Source: Sediminispirochaeta sp. (GTDB lineage: Bacteria > Spirochaetota > Spirochaetia > B11-G9). From it: DNA of 64,000 nucleotides. The DNA lies in NCBI GenBank assembly GCA_024763455.1, contig JANTFL010000001.1, positions 26,678-90,677 of the forward strand, given 5' to 3'. The notes below the pieces were generated by a model. That model had not been told where the DNA came from. It was given only the letters and a program-made list of their open reading frames with translations, and ran no database searches. The position numbers were made by a program, and so were the translations under genes. This document shows positions 37,732-54,367 of the stretch, one piece after another (the first letter of the stretch is position 1; each line of letters opens with the position of its first letter).

Positions 37732-39221
37732 AGAGACGGGAAATACTCTTTACAATTGCAGGTGGAGCGGTTTTTATCATTATACTGTTCTACAGTAACC
37801 TGTTTAATTTCCGGATAGATATTACCGACACAAAGGCATACTCCCTTACCCGGATTTCCAGATCCATAGGTAAGGAACTTCCCCAGCCGGTGAGGATAAC
37901 CTATTATAAAACAAAGGGTATTGAGGGAATATTCCCCGGTACGGCGGATATAATACCTCTTCTGGATGAATTTGCAAGGACATCAGGAGGAAAGATCAGT
38001 CTTAAAATTGTTGATCCTGATTCTATCGTAGATGAAAAAGTTTTTGAGGCCGAAGGAATAGCTTCCCGGCAGGTGAGAATTGTCCGGGATAACAAGAAGT
38101 TTGATTTAAAGGTATATTCTTCGATAACAATCAATTTCCTTGACAGGACAAAGGTTCTCAATTTTGTATACGACATCTCCAGCCTGGAGTATCAGGTTGT
38201 AAGTGCTATCAGGGAGTTAGTTCAAAACAGGAGACGGGTAGTCGGTCTTCTTTTAGGTGACCAAACCCGAAGTTTAAATAAAGATTACACCATGCTGACC
38301 GGCACATTAAGCAGAGATTTTGATTTGGTACCGGTAGATTCCACCAGTTCCTCTACTGTCGGAATGAACGTTCTTCTGGTCCTGGGAAGCAGGGATATAA
38401 CCCTGTTGGACACACAAAAAATAAAGAGTTTTATTGAAAACGGCGGGAATGTATTTTTTGCTGCGGAGGGAGTATTCGTTAATGTGAAAAACAGCTTTTC
38501 TGCTGAGCCGGTTAAGAATAATCCGCTTTTTCAACTGCTTGCAGACTACGGGGTATCTGTTAAAAATACACTGGTTATTGATCCTCTTAACCCGAAGGAT
38601 TTTCGAATACCGAAATCTTTTTATGGCGATGTTGCGTGGAAAACCATCGGACCCTATCCCCAATGGATAACAGTGAGTCATGCTGTTTCAGTAGACAATC
38701 CGATAACTGCTCATTTTGCCGGAGTGGACCTTTTATGGGCAAGCCCCCTCATTCTGGATAGAGATAAAAATGACGGAAGCAGTGTCCTTTTTACAAGTTC
38801 AACTCTCGCTTGGGAAATGAGTGCTCCCTTTGCAACGGATCCATTCAGTACCGAACAGTATAATGAGGGTAGAGCAGCAACTCGTTCAGTACACGTTCTG
38901 GGTGTTTCGATTATCAAAGGTAACTCTCGGATGATTGTGGTGGGTGATTCTGATTTTTTATCTGATCTGATAACCTGGAGCGAAAGCTACCGGAACATGA
39001 ATTTTATTCTTGATTCAGTTGACTGGTTATCACAAAATGAGGATTTTATGGAGATCAGAACCAAAAGAAATGTTAACAGGAGCCTTGATATCCTTGATGA
39101 GGGGCGAACCCAGGCCGTGTACAGCCTTTCTGAATTTTTAAATGTTATTTTAATACCGGTACTTATTCTGGTTGCAGGATTTATTAAAAAGAGTAGAAAA
39201 CGAAAGAGAAATGAAGATTAA
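37722..39221 (+). CDS. GldG-like ABC transporter auxiliary protein (ABC_transp_aux, PF09822), N- and C-terminal TM anchors
   Basis: N-terminal TM plus RITYYKTKG...DEFARTSGGKISLKIVDPD. C-terminal TM VILIPVLILVAGFI then KKSRKRKR. Confidence 0.65.
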   Translation: MVMKRREILFTIAGGAVFIIILFYSNLFNFRIDITDTKAYSLTRISRSIGKELPQPVRITYYKTKGIEGIFPGTADIIPLLDEFARTSGGKISLKIVDPDSIVDEKVFEAEGIASRQVRIVRDNKKFDLKVYSSITINFLDRTKVLNFVYDISSLEYQVVSAIRELVQNRRRVVGLLLGDQTRSLNKDYTMLTGTLSRDFDLVPVDSTSSSTVGMNVLLVLGSRDITLLDTQKIKSFIENGGNVFFAAEGVFVNVKNSFSAEPVKNNPLFQLLADYGVSVKNTLVIDPLNPKDFRIPKSFYGDVAWKTIGPYPQWITVSHAVSVDNPITAHFAGVDLLWASPLILDRDKNDGSSVLFTSSTLAWEMSAPFATDPFSTEQYNEGRAATRSVHVLGVSIIKGNSRMIVVGDSDFLSDLITWSESYRNMNFILDSVDWLSQNEDFMEIRTKRNVNRSLDILDEGRTQAVYSLSEFLNVILIPVLILVAGFIKKSRKRKRNED

Positions 39222-40104
39222 AACCATAATTATCTTTTCCATCATTGTAGTAATCCTGCCTGGAATATTTGTTTTTAAAAAGTCTCACACCCGTTCTCTG
39301 CTTTCTGCATCGTTTATCAGTACGGTTAACACTATGACGATGGAAAATGGGAGCGGGAGTTATACCTTGATAAAGCAGGGCAGAGACTGGTTCCTCGACG
39401 AAGGAGCTACGCATTTTATCTGCAGAAACGGAACGGTTAATGCTTATCTCCAAAAACTTGCTGGTTTAAAAATAATTGAAACGGCTGGTACTTCCAAAGC
39501 TGTCTGGGGAGATCTCGGAGTTGCTGATAACGATCATCATTCAACCACGCTGAAAAACGGTAAGGAAACAGTAAAGCTTTTCTGGGGAAAAAAGAGTGCT
39601 GGCGGAGAAGAGGTTTTTGTCCGGAAAAACCGGGAAGAGTCAGTCTATGTTACAACCTTTCCGGGGGCCGCCATTTATGCAGATAAATGGGGTTGGGTCA
39701 ATGTAAAAATTTTGCCAGTTGCTATTGATACTACTGAAATTATCTCCCTGGACTTTAAGAAAGAGGGGCAGGACTACTCGATAATACGGAAGAATTACTG
39801 GGAGTTGCACTCTGCACGAGGAACCGCCAGGATGGATACCAGGAAGATGAATCTATTACTGGAGAGGATAAAGAACCTGAAGGGAGAAGCTGTGGTCTTG
39901 AAAACGAAGAAGGCTGAGATGATGTCCGCAGGTACACTTATAGTACACCTTGCCGGAGACACCGCTTTGATACTGAATTTCTTAAAAGACAAAAAAGGCA
40001 GTTATTTTGCTGCAGAAGAAAGCAGTGGCTACCTCTACAGGATAAACACAGCAGAAAGAAACGGCGTGTTACCGGATGTAAAATACCTTCTGGATCACTT
40101 TTGA
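39211..40104 (+). CDS. DUF4340-like protein (usual partner of GldG-type auxiliary proteins); the ORF is open from 39172
   Basis: N-terminal TM MKIKTIIIFSIIVVILPGIFVF. Position immediately after the GldG-like gene, with an 11-nt overlap. Confidence 0.5.
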   Translation: MKIKTIIIFSIIVVILPGIFVFKKSHTRSLLSASFISTVNTMTMENGSGSYTLIKQGRDWFLDEGATHFICRNGTVNAYLQKLAGLKIIETAGTSKAVWGDLGVADNDHHSTTLKNGKETVKLFWGKKSAGGEEVFVRKNREESVYVTTFPGAAIYADKWGWVNVKILPVAIDTTEIISLDFKKEGQDYSIIRKNYWELHSARGTARMDTRKMNLLLERIKNLKGEAVVLKTKKAEMMSAGTLIVHLAGDTALILNFLKDKKGSYFAAEESSGYLYRINTAERNGVLPDVKYLLDHF

Positions 40105-41154
40105 CTAACCGTTTTTAGTTAAGAACTCCCGGTATTTTGCCGGGTCAGGTCTAAATCCAATTATATTTGCATCTTGTTCTTTTCCAGCCCTTTTAAGTGC
40201 AGCCGAAGCTTCTGAAAACAGAACATCTCCGTCTACAAGCCGCCCGTTTCTTGAACTGATACCGTACAGGATTGTATACCGTGTAAGAATATCAATCTTT
40301 GTTGAGGTGTTTTGATCAAAATCACGAATCAGTGCTATTCCCTTTTCAATATCAGCGTTTGGAATGATTACAGCATACAAATCAGAGGCACATCTGCATA
40401 TAAGGTCGGAATAGGTAAAGGTTTCCTGCAAAAGCCTTTCAAAAGAATTCATGGCTGAAGCAGAGGTCTCGTTTGGAATGTTTACCAAAGCCAGGACCAT
40501 ATCCTGATCGAATGATGCCGAACGTTTCAGTTCATTAGAAATCTTTGAGATAAATTCATATCTCATCCCTGATCTGTCTTTCTCAGCTTTTCGATCTTTT
40601 GAGTAGTGAGCTGCTTTAGAGATATCTTTCGAGTCCCTGCTGGATATAAGAATAATAAATGCGATAATGATAAATACCAGGGATGCTGCAATTGCATATT
40701 TTAGAAGAGATGCAAACTGATTAATCTGAAGTACCGTAAATACGGTTTTTATTTGATAAATCCTGCCTCGGTAGGGTTTGAACGTTGAAAGAGACGTATC
40801 CCTGATAGTGTCAACCACCTGCGTAAACGTCTCTGCTGTAGTGGATACCGCAGTTGCATTCCTGGCAAATACATAGAGGGATGATCCCTTATCATCAGAG
40901 ATTATCAGGGATTTTAACGAAGGGGAAGAAAGTGCCAGGTTTGAAAGTTTGACAAAGTTAGAAGTTTTTGATGAAGCACTGGTTTTGCTAAAGAGATCAT
41001 CAATAACAGTTTCCGAGATTGAATCAAACATAGTCTTTGCCTTCAAAGTATTCAGATGAAGATTAAAACCCATACTCAAAACAAGGTACAGAACGAGAAT
41101 TGTTATAAAAACAACACCGAAAACGTTAAAATATAATAATTTATTATCCTTCAT
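40105..41154 (-). CDS. membrane protein with two TM helices flanking a periplasmic region and a C-terminal degenerate GGDEF-like domain
   Basis: TM1 LLYFNVFGVVFITILVLYLVL. TM2 YAIAASLVFIIIAFIILI. The C-terminus follows the GGDEF fold pattern, but the RYGGEEF site reads RCASDLY. Confidence 0.45.
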   Translation of the reverse strand: MKDNKLLYFNVFGVVFITILVLYLVLSMGFNLHLNTLKAKTMFDSISETVIDDLFSKTSASSKTSNFVKLSNLALSSPSLKSLIISDDKGSSLYVFARNATAVSTTAETFTQVVDTIRDTSLSTFKPYRGRIYQIKTVFTVLQINQFASLLKYAIAASLVFIIIAFIILISSRDSKDISKAAHYSKDRKAEKDRSGMRYEFISKISNELKRSASFDQDMVLALVNIPNETSASAMNSFERLLQETFTYSDLICRCASDLYAVIIPNADIEKGIALIRDFDQNTSTKIDILTRYTILYGISSRNGRLVDGDVLFSEASAALKRAGKEQDANIIGFRPDPAKYREFLTKNG

Positions 41155-41233: not shown

Positions 41234-42067
41234 ATGAAACTTTACGAAAAAAGAGACAGGTCACTACCTTCAGGCTGGTATCCTGATACAGAAGAAGGGG
41301 TGCGGAAAATTTTAATAAACTGGGAGGAGCGCTACGGGAAAAGAGAAGAGGGCTGTATCTCGGGAATAGTCCCCCATGCTGGATGGTTTTTTTCAGGGTA
41401 TATTGCTTTCTCTGTAATGAGTAACCTCTCTCCAGATGCGGATACGATTGTGATTGCAGGCGGTCATTTGCCTGGCGGAGTATCACCAATGCTCTTCAAC
41501 TATAAGGTAATGGAAACACCTATCGGTCCTTTGGAGACAGATTTAACCTTCCTTGAGGAGCTTTCAGGGCGAATTACATTTTACGAAGGTACAGAAGCAG
41601 ACAACACTGTTGAAATCCAGCTGCCTATTGTCAAGTATCTTTTCCCTGGGAGTAAGGTCGTAGCTTTAAGGGTTGGTGCAGGCAGCGATGCAATTGAACT
41701 AGGCGGGGAAATTGCAGCCGTTTCAAGAAAGCTGGGTAAAAAGACTGTTGTTGTTGGATCAACTGATCTCACCCATTACGGACCTTCATACGGATTTACC
41801 CCCCATGGGACCGGTAATTCAGCCCTCCGCTGGGTTAAAGAAGTAAATGACAAGAAAATAGTAAATGCTTTTTTATCAATGGAAGAAGAAAAAGTTCTGG
41901 AGTACGGGAACAGGAACAAGGCGGCATGCTCATCCGGCGCTGCTGCGAGTGCTATAGCATTTGCCCGTCACTTTGGCAGGTCACAAGGGGAGCTTATTTC
42001 ATACATGACCAGTAATGATGTCTATCCATCAGACTCCTTTGTCGGTTATGCCGGAGTAGTGTACTAA
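41234..42067 (+). CDS. MEMO1-family protein (AmmeMemoRadiSam system protein B)
   Basis: GIVPHAGWFFSG, IVIAGGHLPG, GSTDLTHYGP match the Memo signatures. Confidence 0.65.
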   Translation: MKLYEKRDRSLPSGWYPDTEEGVRKILINWEERYGKREEGCISGIVPHAGWFFSGYIAFSVMSNLSPDADTIVIAGGHLPGGVSPMLFNYKVMETPIGPLETDLTFLEELSGRITFYEGTEADNTVEIQLPIVKYLFPGSKVVALRVGAGSDAIELGGEIAAVSRKLGKKTVVVGSTDLTHYGPSYGFTPHGTGNSALRWVKEVNDKKIVNAFLSMEEEKVLEYGNRNKAACSSGAAASAIAFARHFGRSQGELISYMTSNDVYPSDSFVGYAGVVY

Positions 42068-43746
42068 GATGCAATTACCTTCGCTACTGTTTCAATTGTC
42101 CAGTCAAGAGTTTTTCTAAGAATCTCCATCCCTCCTGTATCAGGGGAACACACTCTCCTGATTGCAGCTGCTGCGGGGAAAAGAGTGATGCAAACCTCTT
42201 TTTGTCTTGAGGTAAGAGAGTGCATATATCCGGATAAAGACTCTGCCGGTACTGGAAGAGATTTAAGATCCTGGTAGTACGAGTAAAGAAAATGATTCCA
42301 TGAGAGATCAGCTGGCCCTGCGGAAAATATACTTGATATTCCGTATGATTCGGGTATTTTTTGATATGCAGGGATTTCTATCATTTCACCTTCCCCTTCA
42401 GGAATGATTACTTCGGATTTGAGACTGCTGATCAGTTTTTCAAGTCTTTTTTTATAACTAATCATTGGTTTCGTCACATACCGTGAGCTTCTCGTATCAG
42501 TTACATGGTTAGTCTCATCGTTGTGAAAAATAAAATCAATAAAAAAATCTTCAAGAGGTTGTGTTCTGTGTGTCAGAGCGCTGAAATATGGATATAAATA
42601 GGTACCTCTGGCATAACTCTTGCCGTAGGGATAAGAGAAGTCAACCCCGAAAAGCAAAATTTTTTTTGCCCCCAGAGAGTAGGCAAGGGATACTGCGGCA
42701 TGGCTGACATTTCCGCCTGAAGTATCAATAAAAGGGAATTCCCTCCATCTTTTTTTTACATACAATGAGAACGGGTGACCGCTGGTAAAAAAAAGAACAT
42801 TGTCTGTAAGCCGGGTTATGAGCTGAGGCGATGCAAGATCAAGAACAAGAGGGATATCATTGGGGATTCCAGTCATAAAGTGATGAAACGTAATATGCTG
42901 GCAGTCGATAGATAATATCAGGTCAGGTTTAATCCCATTTTGTATAAGAGCGGGATAAGCGGTGTCTGTTGTAATCAGAAATCCATCTTTTGAATGCTCC
43001 TTTAATTGTGGCAGCTGCTTTTCTAACGACGGACCGGCTCCGGCTATGAGTGCTTTATTAACAGGAGAAATAACAGTAGTAGTTTTTTCTGCCGCCTTCA
43101 GGTTAAGAAGTGTGTTCACAAACCACCTTTTGCCGAAGTAAGATTGTACTGAAAAATCCTCTGAAAGCGGTGTTATTACATCATTGATTGTTTTTGTAAC
43201 ACTGGAAAAAAATTCGTTTTCCATTTCAACTCTTGCTCTGAGTTTAAGAATATCAAGGTTTCCTGATATGGCAGGGATATAGTTTTCAAGAATATGACTG
43301 GATATATCCTCTGGTGAGGGATCAATAAGTATGCGTACTCTTTTATCAAGAAAAAGTGAGGTGAGATTAAAATGAGTGAGTATTTTCTTGAAAAAGCCAT
43401 AATCCTTGTCAATTACAAGAATCTCAGATATTTGTTTATCTTCAGTAAAGGGTAGTATATGATAACCGGCACCAAAACCGAGGATAATTATGTAACCACT
43501 TGCTTTAAACGTAGAATAAAACCTCTTCCCTTCTTTCTCCGGATCAAAGGTTGAATGAAGAGGGACTTCTCTATCGTTTTTTTTCAAAAACGGAACCCGC
43601 ATTCCTGTTCTGCTTTCTTTTATCAGGTACTGATCAGATTCATCAACATAGCTTATCTTGGAGGCAAGACTGGAATTCGTCGCCGAAAGTGCAAGAAGAT
43701 TGGATTCAAGAAACGACTGATTACTCTGTTTCTGCATTATGTTCAA
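42064..43746 (-). CDS. Maf-family (motility accessory factor; DUF115/MptE-like) protein, paralog 2
   Basis: ALIAGAGPSL, ILSIDCQ, GGNVSHAAVSLAYSLGAKKILLFGVDFSYPYGKSYARGT is the classic Maf core. Confidence 0.75.
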   Translation of the reverse strand: MNIMQKQSNQSFLESNLLALSATNSSLASKISYVDESDQYLIKESRTGMRVPFLKKNDREVPLHSTFDPEKEGKRFYSTFKASGYIIILGFGAGYHILPFTEDKQISEILVIDKDYGFFKKILTHFNLTSLFLDKRVRILIDPSPEDISSHILENYIPAISGNLDILKLRARVEMENEFFSSVTKTINDVITPLSEDFSVQSYFGKRWFVNTLLNLKAAEKTTTVISPVNKALIAGAGPSLEKQLPQLKEHSKDGFLITTDTAYPALIQNGIKPDLILSIDCQHITFHHFMTGIPNDIPLVLDLASPQLITRLTDNVLFFTSGHPFSLYVKKRWREFPFIDTSGGNVSHAAVSLAYSLGAKKILLFGVDFSYPYGKSYARGTYLYPYFSALTHRTQPLEDFFIDFIFHNDETNHVTDTRSSRYVTKPMISYKKRLEKLISSLKSEVIIPEGEGEMIEIPAYQKIPESYGISSIFSAGPADLSWNHFLYSYYQDLKSLPVPAESLSGYMHSLTSRQKEVCITLFPAAAAIRRVCSPDTGGMEILRKTLDWTIETVAKVIAS

Positions 43747-45253
43747 AAGTTCCCCTTACTATTTCTTCGGCTGTTGTAATTATCGGATAAAGATCATCTA
43801 CAGTGCAGCTTTCGCCTGAAGAAAGTTTTTTTACACAGATAATAATTTCCTGGAGTGAAAATAGATAGAATAAACCGGTTAAAGATTCATCTCTGGTAAG
43901 AAAGCGGACTAAGTCCTGAAAACCAGTTATCTCAGGGATCTCCCTCTTTACGATTTGAAGTTTTTTTATGATTGCATGAAGGGAAGAATCAATGAGATCA
44001 AAAGATTTCGGTTTTGCTACTGAAGAAAAAAAGAATTCAGTGGAATCGGCACGTATATTCCCGGTTACTAATTGAATGATTTCACTACCCTTTACTGAGT
44101 GGAAAAAATTTAATGTGGAAGACGATGGATTAACCCTGTAAATATTGTTACTGATACGGACATTATTAAACCAGTTAGCATAGGTTTGGTAAGCTCTATT
44201 GCTCCCCTGATGCTGTGAATCAATCTTGTGTGAATACAATATGTCAAGATATGGGTGAACCCTGGATTCTCGGCATTTAAAATAATTATCAAAAGTATGG
44301 GGGCTTACATGGCTGTGGACATCATTGAATGCAAGATCCAGTCCAGCTACAAATACTGAGGGACTGCCAAGTTTTAACGAGAGTACTAGAGCTGTAGCTG
44401 CAACAGTGCCGGTTTCAAAGAGTTTTACTGAGGGGATCGAAATAAATGAAGACACCCATTTTTCCAATTCAGAGTTCTGGTTAATCAGGAGAACAGGTCC
44501 ATCAACTTTGAGGTGGGTTGCAGTCAAAGGCATGGCAAATGGAATTCCCCGAATAAAATCCTGCCTGAAATGAAATCGATTCCAGAAACCGGGATCAGTA
44601 TTTACAATTAAATCAGGATAAATCGAATAGTATTCAAGTGCATGAAGCGATGAAGGAAGTGCTGTTATAAAAAAAAGTTCCCGATGCTCTTTTATCAGCG
44701 GTAACATCTTGGAAAGAGACGGTCCTGCGGCAGTAATAAGAACAGGCTTTGAAATTTTAAATGAATCCGGGTTTATAAACGTATTGATGTATTTTAGATT
44801 TAGGTATAAATTTCGAATCCATTTTCTACTGAAGTTAACTGTTGTAACTACAGAGCCGTTTCTTTCTTCCATGAATGAAAAAATAGTATCAGCTACCAAT
44901 TGATGGATCTCTGGGAAAGCTTTTGAACACGGTTTCCAAACAATCAACCGGAGAACCGGAATCATGAAATCGGGTATTGAAGAGCCCAAAAAACTTTTCA
45001 ATGAAGTATTTGAACCGACGTACCATGAAAGTTTTTTATCCTTGGCTTTGTCATAAAAAATCTTGTTGTAATATACAGAAACAACTAAGGAACCAGGATA
45101 CCTATCCATCAGATACTTTTTCAGATATTCCCCTCCCGGCCCGGTCAGGAGAAATAGATAACATCCCTTTTTAATATTTAAAGAATCCACATACCGTGAG
45201 GCTGCACGCTCAGGCGCATAAGGTGAATGAATGGTAATACCGTTGTATTTCAA
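43721..45253 (-). CDS. Maf-family (motility accessory factor; DUF115/MptE-like) protein, paralog 3
   Basis: VLITAAGPSL...IVNTDPG...GTVAATALVLSLKLGSPSVFVAGLDLAF. 26-nt overlap with paralog 2. Confidence 0.7.
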   Translation of the reverse strand: MKYNGITIHSPYAPERAASRYVDSLNIKKGCYLFLLTGPGGEYLKKYLMDRYPGSLVVSVYYNKIFYDKAKDKKLSWYVGSNTSLKSFLGSSIPDFMIPVLRLIVWKPCSKAFPEIHQLVADTIFSFMEERNGSVVTTVNFSRKWIRNLYLNLKYINTFINPDSFKISKPVLITAAGPSLSKMLPLIKEHRELFFITALPSSLHALEYYSIYPDLIVNTDPGFWNRFHFRQDFIRGIPFAMPLTATHLKVDGPVLLINQNSELEKWVSSFISIPSVKLFETGTVAATALVLSLKLGSPSVFVAGLDLAFNDVHSHVSPHTFDNYFKCRESRVHPYLDILYSHKIDSQHQGSNRAYQTYANWFNNVRISNNIYRVNPSSSTLNFFHSVKGSEIIQLVTGNIRADSTEFFFSSVAKPKSFDLIDSSLHAIIKKLQIVKREIPEITGFQDLVRFLTRDESLTGLFYLFSLQEIIICVKKLSSGESCTVDDLYPIITTAEEIVRGTFEHNAETE

Positions 45254-45265
45254 AGAGGTATTCCT

Positions 45266-46186
45266 CTAAAGGATATCCAGCTTGGAAAGAAGCAAATCCA
45301 CATCTCTGCCCTGTTCAGGATACAAGATATAGGAATGTTTTATAACCGGAAGATCAGTCTGAATATTAAAATAATTTTTTAAGGTTAATTCAATTTGAGT
45401 TGTTAGAATCTGCGGTTTTTTCATAGTATGTGATGAAAAGAGCAGCAAGGATGTATAAAGATCAATCTGTAATAATCTGCCGGATATATTAACCATAGAG
45501 TAGATTGTGTCAAAAATATCCTGGGATATCTGTTTATCTTCCTGGCTTTCAGATCCGGACTCAGAAATAATGGAAATAAGCTCTTCAAAGTTGAGTTTAA
45601 TAAGGAAAATAACAGAATCCCTATGTTTTGAAAGGTACCGTGATACGAAAGGAATTATTGATGAATCAGCGGACACTGCAGTTTTTTTACTGCTTTCAAT
45701 TTTGGATAGCTTTTCAAGAATAAGTCTTAGAGTTTTTATTGCTTCATCAACAGCTCGTGGTTTTTGAATCATCGGTGAATTGATACCCAGAAATGCAGTA
45801 TCTTGATGCTTCATAAAAGTGATGTTCTTCAGTCCTGTGAATTCGCGTATTGAAAGCAGCGGTTTAAAATTCTGCAGATCCTCAGGTGAAGTAAGTATGT
45901 TAAACCCTTCTGTTTTGAAGATGGAACTTAAAAATTTATTGTTAAATCTAACTCTTCGGCTGGAGGTTATATCAATACCGGTTTGGGCTGCCGGTAACCA
46001 AAGATCTTCTTTGGGGTTATAAGAAAGAAACAAAGCTTTTTTAAGACCAACAAAATCACAAAAAAGGTTTAATGACTTTAAAGGATATGATTCATCAGTG
46101 GATAAATCTCTTTCACTACGAACAAAATCTTCGTAGCTTTTTTTTTTAGAATCTTTTGTATCTAAAACAGTGTTTAGTAAACCCAT
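45266..46186 (-). CDS. hypothetical protein (306 aa) co-operonic with Maf genes; A10 tract at codons 12-15
   Basis: ORF 12 nt upstream of maf paralog 3 and 4 nt downstream of the acidic repeat gene. No recognisable domain. Confidence 0.5.
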   Translation of the reverse strand: MGLLNTVLDTKDSKKKSYEDFVRSERDLSTDESYPLKSLNLFCDFVGLKKALFLSYNPKEDLWLPAAQTGIDITSSRRVRFNNKFLSSIFKTEGFNILTSPEDLQNFKPLLSIREFTGLKNITFMKHQDTAFLGINSPMIQKPRAVDEAIKTLRLILEKLSKIESSKKTAVSADSSIIPFVSRYLSKHRDSVIFLIKLNFEELISIISESGSESQEDKQISQDIFDTIYSMVNISGRLLQIDLYTSLLLFSSHTMKKPQILTTQIELTLKNYFNIQTDLPVIKHSYILYPEQGRDVDLLLSKLDIL

Positions 46187-46190
46187 CTAC

Positions 46191-48401
46191 CTAATGAAGC
46201 CCCAACTCATCAAAAAGTTTTTTATAAACTGAAAAGTACTCGGAGTTTGCAAACTCTTCTATCTTCTCCTCTGGGAGGGACTCGAGCAGCTGATCCATAT
46301 ACGATAGAACTGAAATAACCTCAGATTGCAGATGAGATGGAATCGGTTCTTCTCCAGGAGCATTGTCTGCTATTTCAGTATCCTCTGTTATTTCTTCAGG
46401 AATTTCGATTTCCTCAGGTGCCTCAACAGAATCAGACAATAAATCATCATCCTGGAGTTCCGGTATCTCGATATCAATAGCAGTACTTTCCATAGGTTCA
46501 GAAGGTTCTTTAGGGGGAAGAATATCAAATTCCTCATCAAGATCATTAAGCTCCGGCAGGTCTTCTACAAACTGTTCTTCACTTACTTCTGGAACTTCTT
46601 CAACACGTGCTGCCTCTTCCGGAATCTCAAGATCGGTAAGGTCGGAATCCAGAGAAAGTTCTTCTTCCTCCGGCATCTCCAGGTCGGTAAGGTCAGAATC
46701 CAGAGAAAGTTCTTCTTCCTCCGGCATCTCCAGGTCGGTAAGGTCGGAATCGAGAGAAAGTTCTTCTTCTGGGATCTCAAGATCAGTAAGGTCGGAATCA
46801 AGAGAAAGTTCTTCTTCCGGGATTTCAAGATTCGGCAGATCTGAATCCAGGGATAACTCAGCCGGTTCTTCCTCTTCCTCGATATCAATAAGTTCCGGAG
46901 TTTCGTCGGCTGCCTCATCAAGTACTTCCAGATCGATCAGATCTTCATCTTCAGCGTCCAAATTTAGTTCCGAAACGTCATCAAGCTCAAGGTTTTCGAG
47001 TTCCAGGTCAGGTTCGTCTGTAAAATCTACATCTTCGGAAACTACAGCTTCCGGTATCTCCTCTGCTTCATCGAGTTCGAGTTCTTCAACTTCCGGAATT
47101 TCTTCTTCCATGGAAAGTTCATCCAGTATATCTGGCTGATCAATTAAATCCAGATCTTCTGCTTTGGTTAGTTCCTCGTCCATGGAAAGTTCTTCAGAAT
47201 CTTCAAGAGATTCAGTTTCTACAGCCAGTTCCTCTGTTATATCAGCCGTATTAAGGATATTATCGAGTTCATCCCCTGTTAGAGCAATAGTTTCGTCATC
47301 ATCCTCATTAAAGAAATCACTCGTCTCCTCAGCTGTTTCATCCGTTTGAGAAGCGGTAACCGGAACTGTTTCAGTTGTTTTTAGAGTAGATAACTCCTCT
47401 TTCATTGTAAGAATTTCATTCTTTATGGTAAGGAGTTCGTTTTCAATCTTTTTTAATACTTCAGAAGCCGATTCAACGGATACTTCAGATGCCGTATAAG
47501 AGGGGATGTCACTTTCAACGATATCCTCCTCCTCACCAGTTGTAAGATCTTCAATGATACTTTCAGTTTCATCGAAGTCAACAGAGAAGTCATCAGGGGC
47601 TCCATCACCGGCTTCTTCATCTTCGGAGATTTCAAGGTCAGGGAGTTCTTCAATAGCAAGTTCTTCAGCTCCAGAGATCTCTTCGGCGTTGCCGGGAAGA
47701 GCAGCCTCTTCTTCTCCTTCTTCGTTAAGGAGGATATCATCATCTTCAAGAAAGCTGTCAACATCAAGGTCTTCAAAATCTTCATCGAGGCCGGAACTGA
47801 GTAGATCATCTTCATCAAGATCAAGATCAAGATCATCAACTGAATCTGTCTCAGGGTTAACGGAACTTATACTCTCAGTTTCACGTTCCGGTTCTGTGAC
47901 AGCCTCGATATCTTCTATATCCTCAAGCTCAAGGTCTTCCAGTTCACTGTCCAGGTCATCAAGATCAGCCAATTCTACATCTTCAAGTTCCAGATCATCC
48001 TCTTCCATAGTCTCCATTTCCGGTTCATCTCCTATGCCAGCAGTTTCAGTCTCTTTGGTATTTTCAGGAGACTCATCAAAAGTCTCTGAAGATTCTATAT
48101 CAAGAGGCATGTCAAAAGATTCGTCTTCTTCAAGATCGAAGTCAAGATCATCCAGTTCGTCAATCTCGTCATCGATTTCTTCTGTAACAAGTTCCTTTTC
48201 AAGTTCTCCCAGAAGATTTTCTTCTTCCTCTGTAATTGCACTCTCAGTAGTATCCTGAATATCATGAAGAGAGAAATCTTCTCCTGTATTTAAAGTGTCT
48301 TCGGTTTCAATCTCTTCCGGACCTGCTTTTACCCATACTCCGTACTGTTCAAGCTCTTTTTCTTTTTTTATGTCATCATTCCCGTTTGACACCATTTCCA
48401 T
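46191..48401 (-). CDS. hyper-acidic low-complexity repeat protein (736 aa, about 40% D+E) with conserved-looking termini
   Basis: N-terminus MEMVSNGNDDIKKEKELEQYGVWVKAGPEE. Five tandem copies of ELSLDSDL(T/P)(D/N)LE(I/M)PEE(E). C-terminus VISVLSYMDQLLESLPEEKIEEFANSEYFSVYKKLFDELGLH. Confidence 0.6.
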   Translation of the reverse strand: MEMVSNGNDDIKKEKELEQYGVWVKAGPEEIETEDTLNTGEDFSLHDIQDTTESAITEEEENLLGELEKELVTEEIDDEIDELDDLDFDLEEDESFDMPLDIESSETFDESPENTKETETAGIGDEPEMETMEEDDLELEDVELADLDDLDSELEDLELEDIEDIEAVTEPERETESISSVNPETDSVDDLDLDLDEDDLLSSGLDEDFEDLDVDSFLEDDDILLNEEGEEEAALPGNAEEISGAEELAIEELPDLEISEDEEAGDGAPDDFSVDFDETESIIEDLTTGEEEDIVESDIPSYTASEVSVESASEVLKKIENELLTIKNEILTMKEELSTLKTTETVPVTASQTDETAEETSDFFNEDDDETIALTGDELDNILNTADITEELAVETESLEDSEELSMDEELTKAEDLDLIDQPDILDELSMEEEIPEVEELELDEAEEIPEAVVSEDVDFTDEPDLELENLELDDVSELNLDAEDEDLIDLEVLDEAADETPELIDIEEEEEPAELSLDSDLPNLEIPEEELSLDSDLTDLEIPEEELSLDSDLTDLEMPEEEELSLDSDLTDLEMPEEEELSLDSDLTDLEIPEEAARVEEVPEVSEEQFVEDLPELNDLDEEFDILPPKEPSEPMESTAIDIEIPELQDDDLLSDSVEAPEEIEIPEEITEDTEIADNAPGEEPIPSHLQSEVISVLSYMDQLLESLPEEKIEEFANSEYFSVYKKLFDELGLH
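46612..46865. repeat. five tandem 51/54-bp repeats (unit approx. GGTAAGGTCGGAATCCAGAGAAAGTTCTTCTTCCTCCGGCATCTCCAGGTC) inside the acidic protein gene
   Basis: Direct near-identical repeats visible in the sequence at 46621-46860. They encode the 17-18 aa acidic peptide repeat. Confidence 0.8.
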
Positions 48402-48593
48402 CTCCTGATATTTAGTTCACTTTTACAAATATCGGCAAATAAATTTAAAGTATGACTTATTTATCAGTTTCAATACTATTAATTACAAGTTATCAGAATT
48501 ATAGAGAAATAACAATCAAAATCTAAAAAATATTGAGCCCTTTTCTCTTTCCCGGCTCAAGATTAAGACCTGAATTTCCGTAAAAAAGAACAT

Positions 48594-49067
48594 ATGAAGC
48601 TCATTCACCGTTTACTGATAAGTTTATACACCGCATTTATAGTATTTACCTGGTTATCCTTCTTTGTGGGTCCAAATGGACTGGCAGAAAGCCGCCAGCT
48701 GGAACAATACAAGGAGAAGCTTGTAAAAGGGAATCTCGAAATGGAGAAGATAAACCAGAAGCTTGACAATGAATTTAGAAGACTTGAAAGTGACCCTGAT
48801 AGAATTGCCCTGGAAGCAAGAAGCCTTGGATACTATCGTGATAATGAGGGGATATTCCTTTTGGAAGGATATCATGTAAACCGTAAGGGCTATTCGGTAG
48901 GATCACTTTTCAGAGAATATTCGGGTAAAACTTCAAGTATAGCGGCAATCAGGCTGACAGCAGTATCGCTGGGTGTTGTTGTGTTCTTTTTTCTGACCAT
49001 ATTTTCGAGGAACAAAAATGATTATACTATCCGCAGAAGACGATATTCGGAAGCACGTTATAATTAA
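48594..49067 (+). CDS. septum formation initiator family protein (FtsB/DivIC-like)
   Basis: N-terminal TM. Coiled coil LEQYKEKLVKGNLEMEKINQKLDNEFRRLESDPDRIALEARSLGYYRDNE is typical of FtsB. Confidence 0.6.
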   Translation: MKLIHRLLISLYTAFIVFTWLSFFVGPNGLAESRQLEQYKEKLVKGNLEMEKINQKLDNEFRRLESDPDRIALEARSLGYYRDNEGIFLLEGYHVNRKGYSVGSLFREYSGKTSSIAAIRLTAVSLGVVVFFFLTIFSRNKNDYTIRRRRYSEARYN

Positions 49068-49584
49068 AACACTGAAAGAAAACGGAATTGTTATTATGCC
49101 CTGCGATACCATATACGGTTTTGTTGGTGCTGTCCCTGATACGGGAGAAAAAATCGCATCAATCAAGGGGAGGGAAGAGGGGAAAAAGTTTCTTCAGCTT
49201 ATTCTTCCATCATGGCTCGGCAACTTTACCGATATGAAAATAGAAGAGGAGCTTCTTAAGGTGAGTCCCGGCTGTATTACCTTTATTATTAAAAACCGGA
49301 CAGGAGATACTACAGCAGTCAGGTTCCCTGAAGATCCCTTCCTTGCTGATATTATTGATGGTGTTGGCAGACCGTTGTACTCAACCAGTGTAAACAGGAG
49401 CGGAGCACAGATCCTGTTCCGCCCCGTTGAAATGATTGAGGAATTCGGCAACGAAATAGATGTTCTGCTTGATGCCGGTGAAATTCCCGGTAAAAAACCA
49501 TCCACCATACTCGATGTTACTGCGAGACCTTACAGAATACTAAGACAGGGTGCAGGTGCTGTTCCGGAAAAGTACCTTACCTGA
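49018..49584 (+). CDS. tsaC: L-threonylcarbamoyladenylate synthase TsaC/YrdC
   Basis: YrdC domain: IVIMPCDTIYGFVG...ITFIIKNRTGD...STSVNRSGAQ. Confidence 0.75.
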   Translation: MIILSAEDDIRKHVIIKTLKENGIVIMPCDTIYGFVGAVPDTGEKIASIKGREEGKKFLQLILPSWLGNFTDMKIEEELLKVSPGCITFIIKNRTGDTTAVRFPEDPFLADIIDGVGRPLYSTSVNRSGAQILFRPVEMIEEFGNEIDVLLDAGEIPGKKPSTILDVTARPYRILRQGAGAVPEKYLT

Positions 49585-51993: not shown

Positions 51994-52622
51994 CGGGGAT
52001 AATCTTTACAGGAGGGGAAGGTCCGGAAAAGAGATTTATTGAAAACGAGATAAAGGCAGGAGACTACATAATAGCAGCCGATTCCGGACTGGATAGAGCC
52101 CTTTTATGCGGATATTCACCGGATCTTGTCGTAGGGGATCTGGATTCTGTAAAAAACAAAACTTTTTTAGATGACATTCCTGCTGACTGTGTTAAGATAT
52201 TCCCTGAAGATAAAGATGAAACGGATACAGAAATCGCCTTGAGAATTATGAAAGAGATAAAGGTTGATCGGGTAATCCTCGCAGGCGGGGGAGGGGGACG
52301 TCTCGACCATCTTCTGGGCATTGTATCCATCTTCGACCGTTCATATTATCCTGATGTTTGGTATACCGCAATGGAGAAGATTGTACCTGTCAGCAGCAGG
52401 GATGAGTTTTACGGAATGCTGGGTAAAACGGTTTCACTGTTTCCCGCCGGTAAGGAACCCTGCAGGATAAAAAGCACCGGTTTGAAGTGGAATCTTGATA
52501 CAGTGCAATGGAGTAAAGGTGATGCAGGGATCAGTAACATTGTTGTTGAAGATCCTTTTACAATAACCATGGTAACCGGAAAAGTACTGCTGATAAGTTT
52601 TTTGAAGGAGTTTGGCGAATGA
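51990..52622 (+). CDS. thiN: thiamine pyrophosphokinase
   Basis: IIFTGGEG, AADSGLD, VVGDLDS, ILAGGGGGRLDHLLG. Confidence 0.8.
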   Translation: MTGIIFTGGEGPEKRFIENEIKAGDYIIAADSGLDRALLCGYSPDLVVGDLDSVKNKTFLDDIPADCVKIFPEDKDETDTEIALRIMKEIKVDRVILAGGGGGRLDHLLGIVSIFDRSYYPDVWYTAMEKIVPVSSRDEFYGMLGKTVSLFPAGKEPCRIKSTGLKWNLDTVQWSKGDAGISNIVVEDPFTITMVTGKVLLISFLKEFGE

Positions 52623-54367
52623 CGAAAAAAGATGTGGTATTCCACGATCTTTCAAAGGGGCTTACGCAAAATGAAAGGGATGAATTTCTTAAAAAAATAA
52701 AATACAGTCTCAGTTTAGATAATGAAGAAAGTGGGCTTCATCAGGAGGAAATGGACAAGGATGAACGGCTTGCTCTGATTAAAAAAGAGAAGAATGAAAT
52801 ATCCATGTTATGGAGGTTTTTTCTCTGGATACAGTCAAAATTTACCGGGAAGAGTGTTGAAGAGCTGCTCCTTGCTGGAAAACTCCTTCGAATAAAAAAG
52901 AAAATAAAGAAAAAGCACTCCGGGCTTACAGGGTTTGAGACCAGAAATCTTACTCCTCATTTTGCAGAAATGGTGTACGATCTCTATAAATCCACGGTAC
53001 CGGTAAGGACCCTTTTTAAAAGGATTTGGCTGGACGAAAAAGCTCTTAATACATTTTTTATGGATATAGTAGAGGAAGCGGTCGGGGAAAGAATTCTCGA
53101 TCTTGAGGATGTAGCAAGTTTTGATTCCATAATTGGTGCTTTCGGAGAAGCGGGAAAAAAAGATGATGTTAAGAGACTGATCATAGAAAAACTTGATGCT
53201 TACCTTGAATCGCTTAACAGTAATATCTTTAAACAGCTGGAAATCGATCTGCTTCCCATATACAGGCTGAGAGATCTTGTTCTATTCCCCTATGTTCAGT
53301 TTTTTCAGCAATTTGGCTATACCCTCCTTGATACTCCCTATACGGAAAATCCCCAATTTAAAAATGCCTCCGCCATACTCTGTCTGAATGATCTCGAAAA
53401 ACTGAATTTTGCTGTGTATTCTGCTACAAAACTGGAAAGAAGAGTCAATTTTAACTCCAGAATGCTGGACCGCCTTGGAGTTGTCGCGGGGAATGAACCT
53501 GATGAAAATGTTGAGCATTTTTCTTCTGATATGGAATTAGTCATTCAAAAAGCAAAATGGTTTTCTGATAAGATTCCTCTTTCTGATCTCATACGGTACT
53601 TTAAGAAGAATCCTTTTATAAAAATGATCTTTTATATTCCTGAAGTTAATCTAAGAACCTTTTACAGGACCAGCTTGACTGTAAGGATGATAACCCGGAT
53701 TGATGAACGACTTGCAGAAATACAGGAAAAGTATATCGCCCATGAAATAGAGTCGCTTTTTGCCGGAAAGCATTATGTGAAATTTCAAAACTACCGGGAA
53801 TATTCATCAATAGATTACGAGAAACTTGGAGTTTCCTCCTTCAGGAATATGGAGCCATTGTCCCTGATATATAACTTTATCGAGTGCTACTACAGAGGTA
53901 ATGTAATACAATCGATAGTCAGGGTCCTTGAAAAAGGTGTACTGGCGCAGAACAGACTTATGAGGGATAATATGCTGCAGTACGCTTCTGTTATCGAAGA
54001 TGTAGCAGAAAGGATTCGGGTTTTTGATGATTCCCTTTCCCCTGATTCTGAGGAAGGTAAGGTTTTTCACAAACTCAGATTTTCCATGACCAAGGATATT
54101 TCTCAGCAAAAGGTTTTTAGAAAAATTGTTATCCAAAAAGACCGGGAAGCAAGAAATTTATGCGAAGCAGGTATGGATGCTCTGACAGGGTTAAAAAGAG
54201 TGTTGGGTGAGATAAACCGGAGTACGAATGATGCCGTTACCGAGCAGTTAAAACAACACTATCTTATTAACAACAAACCTGTTGTGCTGCAGGATCTGCT
54301 CACTGGTTCTCTGGAGAATCTGAATAAGGTTGAACACCTCTATCATCACATGCTTACAACCGTATAG
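52619..54367 (+). CDS. hypothetical protein (582 aa), coupled to thiN (ATGA)
   Basis: Long ORF with no recognisable domain. Cytoplasmic-looking. Confidence 0.5.
   Translation: MTKKDVVFHDLSKGLTQNERDEFLKKIKYSLSLDNEESGLHQEEMDKDERLALIKKEKNEISMLWRFFLWIQSKFTGKSVEELLLAGKLLRIKKKIKKKHSGLTGFETRNLTPHFAEMVYDLYKSTVPVRTLFKRIWLDEKALNTFFMDIVEEAVGERILDLEDVASFDSIIGAFGEAGKKDDVKRLIIEKLDAYLESLNSNIFKQLEIDLLPIYRLRDLVLFPYVQFFQQFGYTLLDTPYTENPQFKNASAILCLNDLEKLNFAVYSATKLERRVNFNSRMLDRLGVVAGNEPDENVEHFSSDMELVIQKAKWFSDKIPLSDLIRYFKKNPFIKMIFYIPEVNLRTFYRTSLTVRMITRIDERLAEIQEKYIAHEIESLFAGKHYVKFQNYREYSSIDYEKLGVSSFRNMEPLSLIYNFIECYYRGNVIQSIVRVLEKGVLAQNRLMRDNMLQYASVIEDVAERIRVFDDSLSPDSEEGKVFHKLRFSMTKDISQQKVFRKIVIQKDREARNLCEAGMDALTGLKRVLGEINRSTNDAVTEQLKQHYLINNKPVVLQDLLTGSLENLNKVEHLYHHMLTTV

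What the first reader, a model, noticed from the sequence alone, without database searches (positions are those of the whole stretch)
46191..48401. 736-aa protein with about 40% Asp+Glu and five tandem 17-aa acidic repeats
The coding strand is GA-rich. The protein is almost devoid of hydrophobic core except at its termini. The N-terminus reads EQYGVWVKAGPEE and the C-terminus reads LSYMDQLLESLPEEKIEEFANSEYFSVYKKLFDELGLH. Non-repetitive termini flanking an acidic IDR with ELSLDSDLTDLE(I/M)PEE repeats suggest a polyanionic tether or mimic. Candidate roles are a Ca2+/polyamine sink, a chaperone for basic substrates, or a DNA mimic. The plus-strand Ser-rich ORFs here are mirror artefacts.
Basis: seen in the sequence. 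Interest (0 to 1): 0.6.

Follow-up and report, generated by a model that had tools for sequence, protein, structure and literature searches.

The report
Conserved acidic spirochete scaffold protein (TP0179 family)
This very acidic, mostly disordered protein is a real gene of the TP0179 family, found across spirochetes and abundant in the syphilis bacterium; its function is unknown, but it is always encoded next to flagellin-glycosylation (Maf) genes.

Summary
ORF 46191-48401 (-) encodes 736 aa, probably 734 from the ATG at 48395. It has 39.8% Asp+Glu, pI about 4, and five 16-17-aa tandem repeats.

It is not an orphan. It belongs to Pfam PF27359 (TP_0179), which has more than 1,500 sequence clusters and, in every named source seen, comes from Spirochaetota.

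Five short modules are conserved, not only the termini:
- an N-terminal LEQYGVWVKxGPE motif;
- a short helix;
- a heptad coiled coil;
- a nearly invariant ETIALTGDELDNILNTA helix;
- a C-terminal three-helix domain.

About 77% of the protein is predicted disordered. The acidic linkers and the repeats evolve fast, but acidity is kept.

The gene heads a conserved, tightly packed operon. It is followed by a TP0178-like degenerate GAF-GGDEF protein and two Maf-type glycosyltransferases (74 of 84 loci). The T. pallidum ortholog ranks about 66-77 in proteome abundance.

Best reading: a dimeric polyanionic scaffold tied to flagellin glycosylation or flagellar assembly. The invariant helix resembles the CheY-P/FlhG-binding EIDAL motif of FliM, but only suggestively (p about 0.05). 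The cation-sink and DNA-mimic ideas have no support. This is a new member of a known, uncharacterised family.

The parts
46191..48401 (-). TP_0179-family acidic protein gene. 736-aa ORF; the probable true start is the ATG at 48395, giving 734 aa.
   Evidence: ORF and translation. Composition. 1,069 homologs, and the top 120 all carry PF27359. PF27359 is named TP_0179. BLASTP to T. pallidum TP0179 gives E=2e-8. dN/dS is 0.155 against ortholog L005. RBS spacing.
48312..48353 (-). Module 1: N-terminal motif LEQYGVWVKAGPEE (aa 17-30).
   Evidence: Y20, G21, W23, K25 and P28 are invariant in 78 sequences. T. pallidum has CGVWVKVPPE. AF2 pLDDT is only about 50.
48174..48233 (-). Module 2: conserved acidic helix (L)TEEEExLLGxLE (aa 57-76).
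   Evidence: E60, E61 and L64 are invariant. AF2 predicts helix 58-76 with pLDDT up to 79.
47376..47477 (-). Module 3: heptad coiled-coil helix (aa 309-342), a probable oligomerisation element.
   Evidence: AF2 predicts helix 309-342 with pLDDT 82-94. Hydrophobic residues at 316, 319, 323, 326, 330, 333, 337 and 340 follow a 3-4 spacing, read directly from the sequence. L323 and I326 are invariant. dN/dS of the modules is 0.01.
47229..47318 (-). Module 4: nearly invariant segment GFFxEDEDETIALTGDELDNILNTADITEE (aa 362-391). It contains a FliM-N-like (EIDAL-like) amphipathic helix at aa 374-384.
   Evidence: I372 and L374-I382 are invariant in 78 sequences. AF2 predicts helix 376-389 inside disordered flanks. 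It is the only match to the loose EIDAL-type regex in the six-frame window. 33 of 130 homologs carry a second copy near the N-terminus, against 1 background hit in about 0.78 M ORF residues. Compared with Salmonella FliM and T. pallidum FliM MTEVLSQDEIDQLLTA. The shuffle test gives p about 0.05.
46614..46859 (-). Five tandem 16-17-aa acidic repeats ELSLDSDL(T/P)(D/N)LE(I/M)PEE(E), aa 515-596, inside a variable linker.
   Evidence: TRF finds a 51-nt period, 4.0-4.8 copies and 85-90% matches. The ortholog has two units. An independent assembly breaks inside the array.
46194..46337 (-). Module 5: C-terminal three-helix domain (aa 689-736), consensus EIKSVLSYMDQLLExLPEEKIxEFAxSEYFxxYKKLFEELGL.
   Evidence: AF2 predicts helices 689-708, 711-718 and 721-732 with pLDDT 86-87. 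A profile search finds 2,282 representatives at E<=1e-3 and 1,586 at E<=1e-10; in all 150 listed hits the domain ends at the extreme C-terminus. No significant PDB sequence or fold match.
48498..48527 (-). Promoter-like site upstream of the operon (TTTAGA-18-TATAAT).
   Evidence: Consensus scan, 10 of 12 matches. No minus-strand terminator-like site lies between the four genes. This is a consensus match only.
45266..46186 (-). Gene 2 of the operon: 306-aa TP0178-like protein, a divergent GAF - long helix - GGDEF-like fold with no GGDEF signature. It starts 4 nt after the acid gene's stop.
43721..45253 (-). Gene 3: Maf-type (MptE-like/DUF115) protein, 510 aa.
   Evidence: PF01973 E=3e-22. Partial FlagModPseD match. 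Present downstream in 74 of 84 loci.
42064..43746 (-). Gene 4: Maf-type protein, 560 aa. It overlaps gene 3 by 26 nt.
   Evidence: PF01973 E=2.5e-34, and Maf_flag10_N E=8.6e-5. Present in 74 of 84 loci. [quoted passage not shown]
46363..47139 (+). Antisense Ser-rich ORF (258 aa). A mirror artefact, not a gene.
   Evidence: Listed. It lies opposite a frame that is conserved and under purifying selection.
47506..48258 (+). Antisense Ser-rich ORF (250 aa). A mirror artefact, not a gene.
   Evidence: Listed. Same argument as for the other antisense ORF.

Best explanation
The ORF is the ortholog of Treponema pallidum TP0179 (Pfam PF27359). It is a soluble cytoplasmic protein. Five short, strongly conserved binding or oligomerisation modules are strung on long, fast-evolving, polyanionic disordered linkers. 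The modules are the N-terminal YGVWVK motif, an acidic helix, a heptad coiled coil, an invariant amphipathic helix (ETIALTGDELDNILNTA) and a C-terminal three-helix domain.

I propose that it works as a coiled-coil dimer that acts as a flexible, negatively charged scaffold or tether of the flagellar assembly pathway. It would hold or position its operon partners: the TP0178-like degenerate GAF-GGDEF protein and the two Maf-type flagellin nonulosonic-acid glycosyltransferases. It would dock, through its invariant motifs, onto a highly conserved flagellar or chemotaxis component. CheY-P and the MinD-like ATPase FlhG are the best candidates for that component, by analogy with the EIDAL motif of FliM. 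The acidic linkers would serve as charge-dependent spacers whose bulk property, not sequence, is selected.

Shown: the gene is real and under purifying selection; the family, its architecture and its disorder; the operon conservation; high expression of the T. pallidum ortholog.

Inferred: dimerisation, the flagellar role, the scaffold mechanism and the identity of any partner.
For: Family and conservation:
- 1,069 homologs, and the top 120 all carry PF27359 = TP_0179.
- At least 459 genome loci; of the 80 whose record titles were listed, 77 carry spirochete names and 3 (L038, L075, L076) name no organism.
- 1,586 clusters at 50% identity carry the C-terminal domain at E<=1e-10.
- BLASTP to TP0179 gives E=2e-8.

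Architecture:
- Invariant columns cluster in five modules.
- AF2 puts 77% of residues below pLDDT 50, with confident helices at 309-342 and 689-732.
- There is no TM segment; the maximum 19-residue hydropathy is 0.62.

Selection:
- dN/dS is 0.01 in the modules and 0.216 in the linkers, at dS 0.79.
- Homologs keep 24-40% D+E despite 18-23% mean column identity.

Operon:
- The intergenic gaps are 4 nt and 12 nt, followed by a 26-nt overlap.
- The same order occurs in L001-L003 with 1-3-nt gaps.
- MafA and MafB lie downstream in 74 of 84 loci.
- The middle gene is one family, including TP0178.
- The T. pallidum cluster includes a named Maf glycosyltransferase.

Biology of the partners:
- T. denticola FlaB carries O-linked nonulosonic-acid glycans that are essential for filament assembly (PMC13439194).
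- Some Mafs need a cis-encoded adaptor, GlfM (bioRxiv 10.1101/2023.12.03.569772).

Expression:
- TPANIC_0179 has 64% coverage and abundance rank 66-77. FliN (68-75) and CheA (67) rank similarly; FliM ranks 275-291.

Docking motif:
- LTGDELDNIL aligns with T. pallidum FliM LSQDEIDQLL: 5 identical plus 4 conservative positions out of 10.
- The motif is predicted helical inside disorder, as FliM-N becomes on binding (PMC6700473).
- It is duplicated at a second position in 33 of 130 homologs, which is typical of a modular linear motif.
- The EIDAL motif binds CheY-P and FlhG.
Against: No experiment addresses any family member. TP0179 appears in the literature only as a hypothetical gene with a recombinant region. 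It is absent from the held part of the T. pallidum two-hybrid supplement.

Gene neighbourhood is indirect evidence. The divergent DivIC neighbour is also conserved (60 of 84 loci).

The EIDAL resemblance is weak statistically:
- Composition-preserving shuffles of this D/E/L-rich protein reach the observed score against T. pallidum FliM in 268 of 5,000 trials. Against Salmonella FliM it is 1,043 of 5,000. For the T. pallidum FliN/Y motif, the best site in the protein is elsewhere.
- A profile of the motif finds no FliM in the PDB.
- T. pallidum has N instead of the conserved D (ELNNIL).

The C-terminal domain is a three-helix unit, not a GlfM-like four-helix bundle. It has no significant PDB match.

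Some termite-gut Treponema loci lack the TP0178-like gene, so that partner is not obligatory.
Confidence: 0.42

Rival explanations
1. Chemotaxis or flagellar-number regulator through FliM mimicry. The invariant helix is a true EIDAL-type peptide that binds CheY-P (as a sink, buffer or phosphatase platform) or FlhG. This would make the protein a spirochete counterpart of ChePep or of the cytoplasmic part of HubP. The Maf linkage would reflect only co-regulation with flagellar genes.
For: Motif alignment to Salmonella and T. pallidum FliM N-termini. EIDAL binds CheY-P and is necessary and sufficient for FlhG binding, with HubP as an acidic polar scaffold. The motif is duplicated in 33 of 130 homologs. 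The T. pallidum ortholog gives roughly ten times the MS signal of FliM and ranks near CheA and FliN. ChePep is an unrelated polar chemotaxis regulator with 29.6% D+E and 77.4% predicted disorder, whose charge rather than sequence matters (PMC3143842).
Against: Shuffle p is about 0.05-0.2. There is no HMM or PDB-level link to FliM. No REC domain or CheZ-like element is present. No che, flh or fli genes were seen in the 19 window ORFs scanned or in the three annotated related loci. This model does not explain the very tight operon with TP0178-like and Maf genes.
Confidence: 0.25
2. Cell-pole or division-site organiser (DivIVA- or HubP-like landmark) acting with the divisome. The flagellar genes would be neighbours because spirochete motors are built next to division sites.
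For: A DivIC/FtsB gene lies divergently upstream here and in 60 of 84 loci. The protein combines a coiled coil with long acidic disordered regions, as in polar hubs. JGI names many homologs 'pilus assembly protein FimV'.
Against: No LysM domain, no TM segment and no FimV C-terminal domain. The FimV label probably reflects composition. DivIC is on the opposite strand and not co-transcribed, and its conservation (60 of 84) is lower than that of the Maf pair (74 of 84).
Confidence: 0.1
3. Non-specific polyanion, the first reader's idea: a cytoplasmic Ca2+/Mg2+/polyamine buffer, a chaperone for basic proteins, or a DNA mimic.
For: Net charge is about -275 and D+E is 39.8%. Acidity is conserved across the family while linker sequence is not. 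The T. pallidum ortholog is highly abundant.
Against: Five short modules are under extreme constraint (dN/dS 0.01, invariant columns), which a bulk polyanion does not need. The conserved operon points to a specific pathway. The operon partners are not strongly basic. There is no fold or regular charge array typical of DNA mimics, and 77% of the protein is predicted disordered.
Confidence: 0.08
4. Not a real protein-coding gene: a low-complexity ORF arising by chance in GA-rich DNA.
For: Low-complexity composition with long ORFs on both strands. The exact product is not on record in the collection.
Against: More than 1,000 homologs with the same modular architecture. dN/dS is 0.155 at dS 0.79. 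There is an RBS and a conserved operon position. The T. pallidum ortholog is detected by MS with 64% coverage.
Confidence: 0.01

Closest known systems
Pfam PF27359 'TP_0179' family (T. pallidum TP0179 / TPANIC_0179, WP_010881626, hypothetical protein)
   Same: Homologous. It shares the GVWVK motif, the coiled coil, the GFF..DETIALTxDELxNIL segment and the C-terminal domain. It has the same operon position, upstream of TP0178-like and Maf genes.
   Different: The window protein is more acidic (39.8% D+E). It lacks the basic N-terminal extension annotated in T. pallidum. It has ELDNIL where T. pallidum has ELNNIL. It carries a lineage-specific array of five repeats. No function is known for the family.
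ChePep (Helicobacter/Campylobacter 'poly-E-rich protein'), a polar chemotaxis regulator
   Same: Very acidic (average 29.6% D+E). About 77% predicted disordered. Only short regions are conserved, and charge rather than sequence is preserved. It is motility-linked (PMC3143842; compare).
   Different: No detectable homology. ChePep has a conserved N-terminal response-regulator-like region and is restricted to Epsilonproteobacteria. The window protein has no REC hit and is from Spirochaetota.
HubP / FimV polar hub proteins
   Same: Acidic, repeat-containing, largely disordered cytoplasmic region. HubP works with FlhF and FlhG at the flagellated pole. JGI labels many homologs 'FimV'.
   Different: No signal peptide, LysM domain, TM segment or FimV C-terminal TPR-like domain. 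It is not a member.
FliM / FliY N-terminal EIDAL (LSQxEIDALL) peptide
   Same: A short amphipathic helix inside a disordered region, with pattern L-[ST]-x-x-E-[IL]-D-x-[IL]-L-(N). LTGDELDNILN aligns with Salmonella LSQAEIDALLN and T. pallidum LSQDEIDQLL.
   Different: The motif is internal rather than N-terminal. There is no FliM middle domain or SpoA domain. The similarity is not significant once the protein's composition is allowed for.
GlfM, the cis-encoded adaptor of Maf-2 flagellin glycosyltransferases
   Same: Encoded next to maf genes. It is a small helical element that could bridge Maf and its substrate.
   Different: GlfM is an 89-residue four-helix bundle with no acidic disordered region. 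Here the helical unit is a 48-residue three-helix C-terminal domain on a 736-aa polyanion. No sequence relationship was tested, because no GlfM sequence was available.

Membership tests
Pfam PF27359 (TP_0179) | Sequence homology to family members, including T. pallidum TP0179 | tested here: met
   The top 120 homologs all carry precomputed PF27359, including 72%-identical full-length orthologs. BLASTP to TP0179(1-399) gives E=2e-8.
Pfam PF27359 (TP_0179) | Conserved domain of about 50 aa at the extreme C-terminus | tested here: met
   Alignments A1-A3. The profile finds 1,586 representatives at E<=1e-10, and in all 150 listed hits the domain ends at the last residues.
Pfam PF27359 (TP_0179) | Score above the family's gathering threshold with the Pfam HMM itself | not testable with these tools
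   The local Pfam-A copy returned no family for this protein and appears to lack PF27359.
FimV / HubP | N-terminal periplasmic LysM peptidoglycan-binding domain | tested here: not met
   No Pfam family was found in the protein or its N-terminus.
FimV / HubP | Transmembrane segment | tested here: not met
   The maximum 19-residue Kyte-Doolittle mean is 0.62.
FimV / HubP | FimV C-terminal domain (TIGR03504-type) | tested here: not met
   No NCBIfam hit for the whole protein or the C-terminal 56 aa at E<=10.
FimV / HubP | Long acidic, repeat-containing cytoplasmic region | tested here: met
   39.8% D+E and five tandem repeats.
ChePep | Conserved N-terminal response-regulator-like region | tested here: not met
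   No Response_reg or other Pfam/NCBIfam hit in aa 1-70.
ChePep | Extreme acidity and predicted disorder | tested here: met
   compared with PMC3143842.
ChePep | Polar localisation and CheZ interaction | not testable with these tools
   This needs microscopy or pull-down experiments.
FliM/FliY switch proteins (EIDAL motif carriers) | LSQxEIDALL CheY-P/FlhG-binding peptide | tested here: inconclusive
   5 identical plus 4 conservative positions out of 10 against T. pallidum FliM. Shuffle p is about 0.05 against T. pallidum FliM and 0.21 against Salmonella FliM. No PDB profile hit.
FliM/FliY switch proteins (EIDAL motif carriers) | FliM middle (CheC-like) domain and C-terminal SpoA domain | tested here: not met
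   No Pfam hit.
GlfM-type Maf adaptors | Encoded in cis with maf genes | tested here: met
   Same operon here and in 74 of 84 loci.
GlfM-type Maf adaptors | Small (about 90 aa) four-helix-bundle protein | tested here: not met
   The protein is 736 aa. Its only compact unit is a 48-aa three-helix domain.
GlfM-type Maf adaptors | Binds Maf and promotes a ternary complex with flagellin | not testable with these tools
   No multimer prediction or experiment was available.

The most novel reading that the evidence does not exclude
The invariant ETIALTGDELDNILNTA helix is a true FliM-N mimic. TP0179-family proteins would then be abundant, dimeric, polyanionic tethers that bind CheY-P and/or FlhG in spirochetes. 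They would be a previously unrecognised component coupling chemotaxis signalling, flagellar number or placement, and flagellin glycosylation at the cell poles. This could bear on the unsolved question (my own knowledge of the field; no paper on this was retrieved) of how spirochetes coordinate the motor sets at their two poles.
Probability: 0.12. Interest if true: 0.85.

Novelty: new member of a known kind. Interest (0 to 1): 0.48.

Why it matters
The family appears conserved across class Spirochaetia and is retained in the small genome of T. pallidum. There it ranks among the roughly 70 most abundant proteins, yet it has no assigned function. Its fixed position ahead of the Maf-type genes ties it to periplasmic-flagellum biogenesis, which in T. 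denticola requires flagellin glycosylation. The module map given here turns a 'hypothetical protein' into a set of directly testable binding hypotheses for syphilis, periodontal and environmental spirochetes. The map comprises five short conserved elements, including a duplicated FliM-like linear motif, together with a newly recognised degenerate GAF-GGDEF partner (the TP0178 family).

Tried and rejected
- Pfam and NCBIfam scans of the whole protein and of the termini or centre alone found no meaningful hit.
- PDB sequence searches with the central motif, a motif profile and a C-terminal-domain profile found nothing significant. The best was a MICAL-C-like protein at E=0.048. FliG-N hits at E about 1 were ignored.
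- Foldseek of the full AF2 model against the PDB gave 0 matches. The afdb50 library was unavailable.
- Literature: TP0179 appears only in comparative-genomics lists. There is no TP0179 entry in the held part of the T. pallidum two-hybrid supplement. No paper contains the strings YGVWVK or GDELDNIL. No spirochete Maf-partner study was found.
- Exact-sequence look-ups of the 736-aa and 734-aa products found nothing on record.
- FimV annotation: rejected, because the defining domains are absent.
- CheC-type phosphatase motif (D/S-x3-E-x2-N) in the invariant helix: considered by eye and rejected, because the D/S position and the downstream Pro are missing.
- A possible likeness of YGVWVK to the FliH N-terminal Trp motif: recalled from memory, needs a gap, and was not tested, so it is not claimed.
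- A first dN/dS run that included L008 was discarded, because that contig end goes out of frame. It was replaced by an L005-only analysis.
- The first version of the shuffle script timed out and was rerun vectorised.
Full report
**1. Observation.** ORF 46191..48401 on the minus strand is present and encodes 736 aa.
- Glu is 24.9% and Asp 14.9%, so D+E is 39.8%. K+R is 2.4%, the computed pI is 4.05 and the net charge is about -275.
- Tandem Repeats Finder reports a 51-nt period with 4.0-4.8 copies at 46615-46850. At protein level these are five units of 16-17 aa: ELSLDSDL(T/P)(D/N)LE(I/M)PEE(E), aa 515-596.
- An AGGAG box lies 6 nt before the third-codon ATG (48395) and directly abuts the first ATG. 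The closest orthologs begin MVSNG. The real start is therefore probably 48395.
- The coding strand is 56.5% purine.
- The two Ser-rich plus-strand ORFs are mirror images of a frame shown below to be conserved and under selection.

**2. It is a real gene of a large family.** A search of 5.8 billion proteins gave 1,069 hits at E<=1e-3. The 120 listed all carry the precomputed Pfam family PF27359, and context look-ups give its name as TP_0179.
- Two full-length orthologs are about 72% identical. Most other hits match about 7% of the query at 60-80% identity, which corresponds to the short conserved modules.
- A scan of one genome per species found at least 459 loci encoding relatives. Of the 80 whose record titles were listed, 77 carry spirochete names, including Treponema, Gracilinema, Sediminispirochaeta, Alkalispirochaeta and Rectinemataceae; three (L038, L075, L076) name no organism. 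The closest is a Guaymas Basin 'Spirochaetes bacterium' MAG.
- A profile of the C-terminal 56 aa finds 2,282 representatives of 50%-identity clusters (1,586 at E<=1e-10). In all 150 listed hits the domain ends at the extreme C-terminus.
- Against the nearest ortholog (L005), dN/dS is 0.155 overall at dS 0.79. It is 0.01 in the conserved modules and 0.216 in the linkers.
- The T. pallidum sequence, taken from a proteomics supplement, aligns with E=2e-8 over the coiled coil and central motif. It also has the GVWVK motif.

**3. Anatomy.** Alignments of 28 and 78 members show five islands of invariant or nearly invariant columns:
- aa 17-30, LEQYGVWVKxGPE;
- aa 57-68, (L)TEEEExLLGxLE;
- aa 309-342, a helix with hydrophobic residues at 316/319/323/326/330/333/337/340, a 3-4 heptad spacing;
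- aa 362-391, GFFxEDEDETIALTGDELDNILNTADITEE, which is the most conserved stretch of the family;
- aa 689-735, EIKSVLSYMDQLLExLPEEKIxEFAxSEYFxxYKKLFEELGL.

Everything in between is acidic and hypervariable in length and sequence (mean column identity 18-23%). Acidity itself is kept, at 24-40% D+E in all homologs listed.

AlphaFold2 with the 78-sequence alignment gives 567 of 736 residues a pLDDT below 50. It predicts confident helices at 309-342 (pLDDT 82-94) and a three-helix C-terminal unit (689-708, 711-718, 721-732; pLDDT 86-87). Weaker helices lie at 58-76 and 376-389. There is no TM-like segment.

The repeat array lies in a variable linker. The nearest ortholog has two units where the window has five. 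An independent short-read assembly is identical over 5,409 nt but ends inside the array. The copy number therefore needs long reads.

**4. Context.** The gene is followed after 4 nt by a 306-aa ORF. A 510-aa Maf-type (MptE-like) ORF follows after 12 nt, and a 560-aa Maf-type ORF overlaps it by 26 nt. No minus-strand terminator-like site lies between them, and a promoter-like site lies upstream.
- The same order, with 1-3-nt gaps, occurs in three distant Spirochaetia contigs.
- By tblastn, both Mafs follow the acid gene in 74 of 84 loci. A DivIC gene lies divergently upstream in 60 of 84. Memo (41 of 84) and a membrane GGDEF-like protein (43 of 84) lie beyond the Mafs.
- Its positional counterparts in 34 other loci, plus T. 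pallidum TP0178, form one family with it (hhalign probability 99.75%, E=2e-27). They share an MGLL/MSLLEKA N-terminus. A few termite-gut Treponema loci lack this gene.

**5. Expression.** In a deep T. pallidum proteome, TPANIC_0179 (627 aa) is detected with 64% coverage. It ranks 66th and 77th by abundance in two tables. That is next to FliN (75/68), CheA (67), flagellin and elongation factors, and far above FliM (275/291).

**6. What it may do.** Established knowledge comes first.
- Maf proteins are cytoplasmic flagellin nonulosonic-acid glycosyltransferases, and some need a cis-encoded adaptor, GlfM.
- T. denticola FlaB carries O-linked nonulosonic-acid glycans that are essential for filament assembly.
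- A conserved, translationally tight operon across deep divergences is strong, though indirect, evidence of a shared pathway.

The protein's design is typical of a scaffold or tether: a coiled coil, several tiny and extremely constrained elements, and long charge-conserved spacers.

The modules are far more conserved than the Mafs (25-50% identity in most loci, up to about 90% in the nearest relative) or the TP0178-like protein. At least some modules therefore probably contact a very conserved machine.

One candidate comes from the invariant helix. LTGDELDNILN aligns with Salmonella FliM LSQAEIDALLN and T. pallidum FliM LSQDEIDQLL. This is the EIDAL peptide that binds CheY-P (PMC6700473; PMC6946799) and is necessary and sufficient for FlhG binding (bioRxiv 10.1101/2022.04.21.489128).
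- In favour: the segment is a predicted helix in disorder. A quarter of homologs (33 of 130) carry a second copy near the N-terminus. The loose regex occurs once in the six-frame window and once outside the family in about 0.78 M ORF residues.
- Against: in a D/E/L-rich protein the match is not compelling. Composition shuffles reach the T. pallidum FliM score in 268 of 5,000 trials and the Salmonella score in 1,043 of 5,000. A motif profile finds no FliM in the PDB. T. pallidum has N for the key D.

I therefore treat CheY-P/FlhG docking as a lead, not a finding.

**7. Comparison with known systems.** The protein is a member of PF27359.
- It is not FimV/HubP: there is no LysM domain, TM segment or FimV C-terminal domain. 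The JGI 'FimV' labels probably reflect composition.
- It resembles ChePep in physical character (29.6% D+E, 77.4% disorder, charge rather than sequence conserved). It lacks ChePep's N-terminal REC-like region.
- It is unlike GlfM in size and fold.
The partners are not strongly basic, and bulk polyanion roles do not need five modules at dN/dS 0.01.

**8. Verdict.** The finding is a new member of a known but functionally uncharacterised family. The useful additions are the module map, the conserved TP0179-TP0178-Maf-Maf operon, the GAF-GGDEF-like fold of TP0178, and a testable FliM-mimic hypothesis.

Noticed in passing
window 45266-46186 (-): A 306-aa protein with no Pfam or NCBIfam hit. Its AF2 model matches GAF plus GGDEF folds but lacks the GGDEF signature. 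It belongs to one family with T. pallidum TP0178 and shares a conserved MGLL/MSLLEKA N-terminus. It may be a nucleotide or c-di-GMP sensor in the Maf operon.
   Followed up: yes
window 40105-41154 (-): A 349-aa protein with hydrophobic N-terminal segments and a weak GGDEF match (TIGR00254, E=6e-4). It is a conserved neighbour in 43 of 84 loci. T. pallidum has a 'diguanylate cyclase' (TPANIC_0172) in the same cluster.
   Followed up: partly
window 48395-48401 (-): Probable start-codon over-extension. The AGGAG box is 6 nt before the ATG at 48395 and abuts the ATG at 48401. Orthologs start at the equivalent of 48395.
   Followed up: yes
L085 (Logan SRR19843167_3) against window 46674: An independent short-read contig is identical to the window over 5,409 nt but ends inside the 51-nt repeat array. 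The repeat copy number in assemblies of this gene is therefore unreliable.
   Followed up: yes
L041, L072, L074, L077, L009, L020, L016: In these loci, which include several Treponema MAGs, the TP0178-like gene is missing. In four of them (L041, L072, L074, L077) the record titles do not state the habitat, and a Maf gene follows the acid gene after 38-335 nt; in the others the gap is larger.
   Followed up: partly
P0016, P0022, P0103, P0111 and 29 other homologs: These carry a second copy of the FliM-like motif (for example EEIALSDSELDNVLKSADIT) near the N-terminus, ahead of the YGVWVK motif. P0069 has two internal copies.
   Followed up: partly
P0145 (317 aa): A representative protein with two matched stretches of the C-terminal domain (E=6.5e-49). 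This is an unusual architecture and was not examined.
   Followed up: no
window 36344-40104 (+): A cluster of an ABC ATPase, an ABC-2 permease, an ABC_transp_aux/DUF7088 protein and a DUF4340 protein. The same DUF4340 and ABC_transp_aux genes also appear near the operon in L001.
   Followed up: no
window 52619-54367 (+): A 582-aa DUF5312 protein. A DUF5312 protein (TPANIC_0110) is also listed in the T. pallidum proteome.
   Followed up: no
window 41234-42067 (+): A Memo / AmmeMemoRadiSam system protein B homolog, convergent with the Maf operon and conserved there in 41 of 84 loci. No AMMECR1 or radical-SAM partner was seen in the ORFs scanned.
   Followed up: no
window 48594-49584 (+): DivIC/FtsB-like and Sua5/TsaC genes lie divergently upstream, and the two ORFs overlap by 50 nt. 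DivIC keeps this position in 60 of 84 loci.
   Followed up: partly
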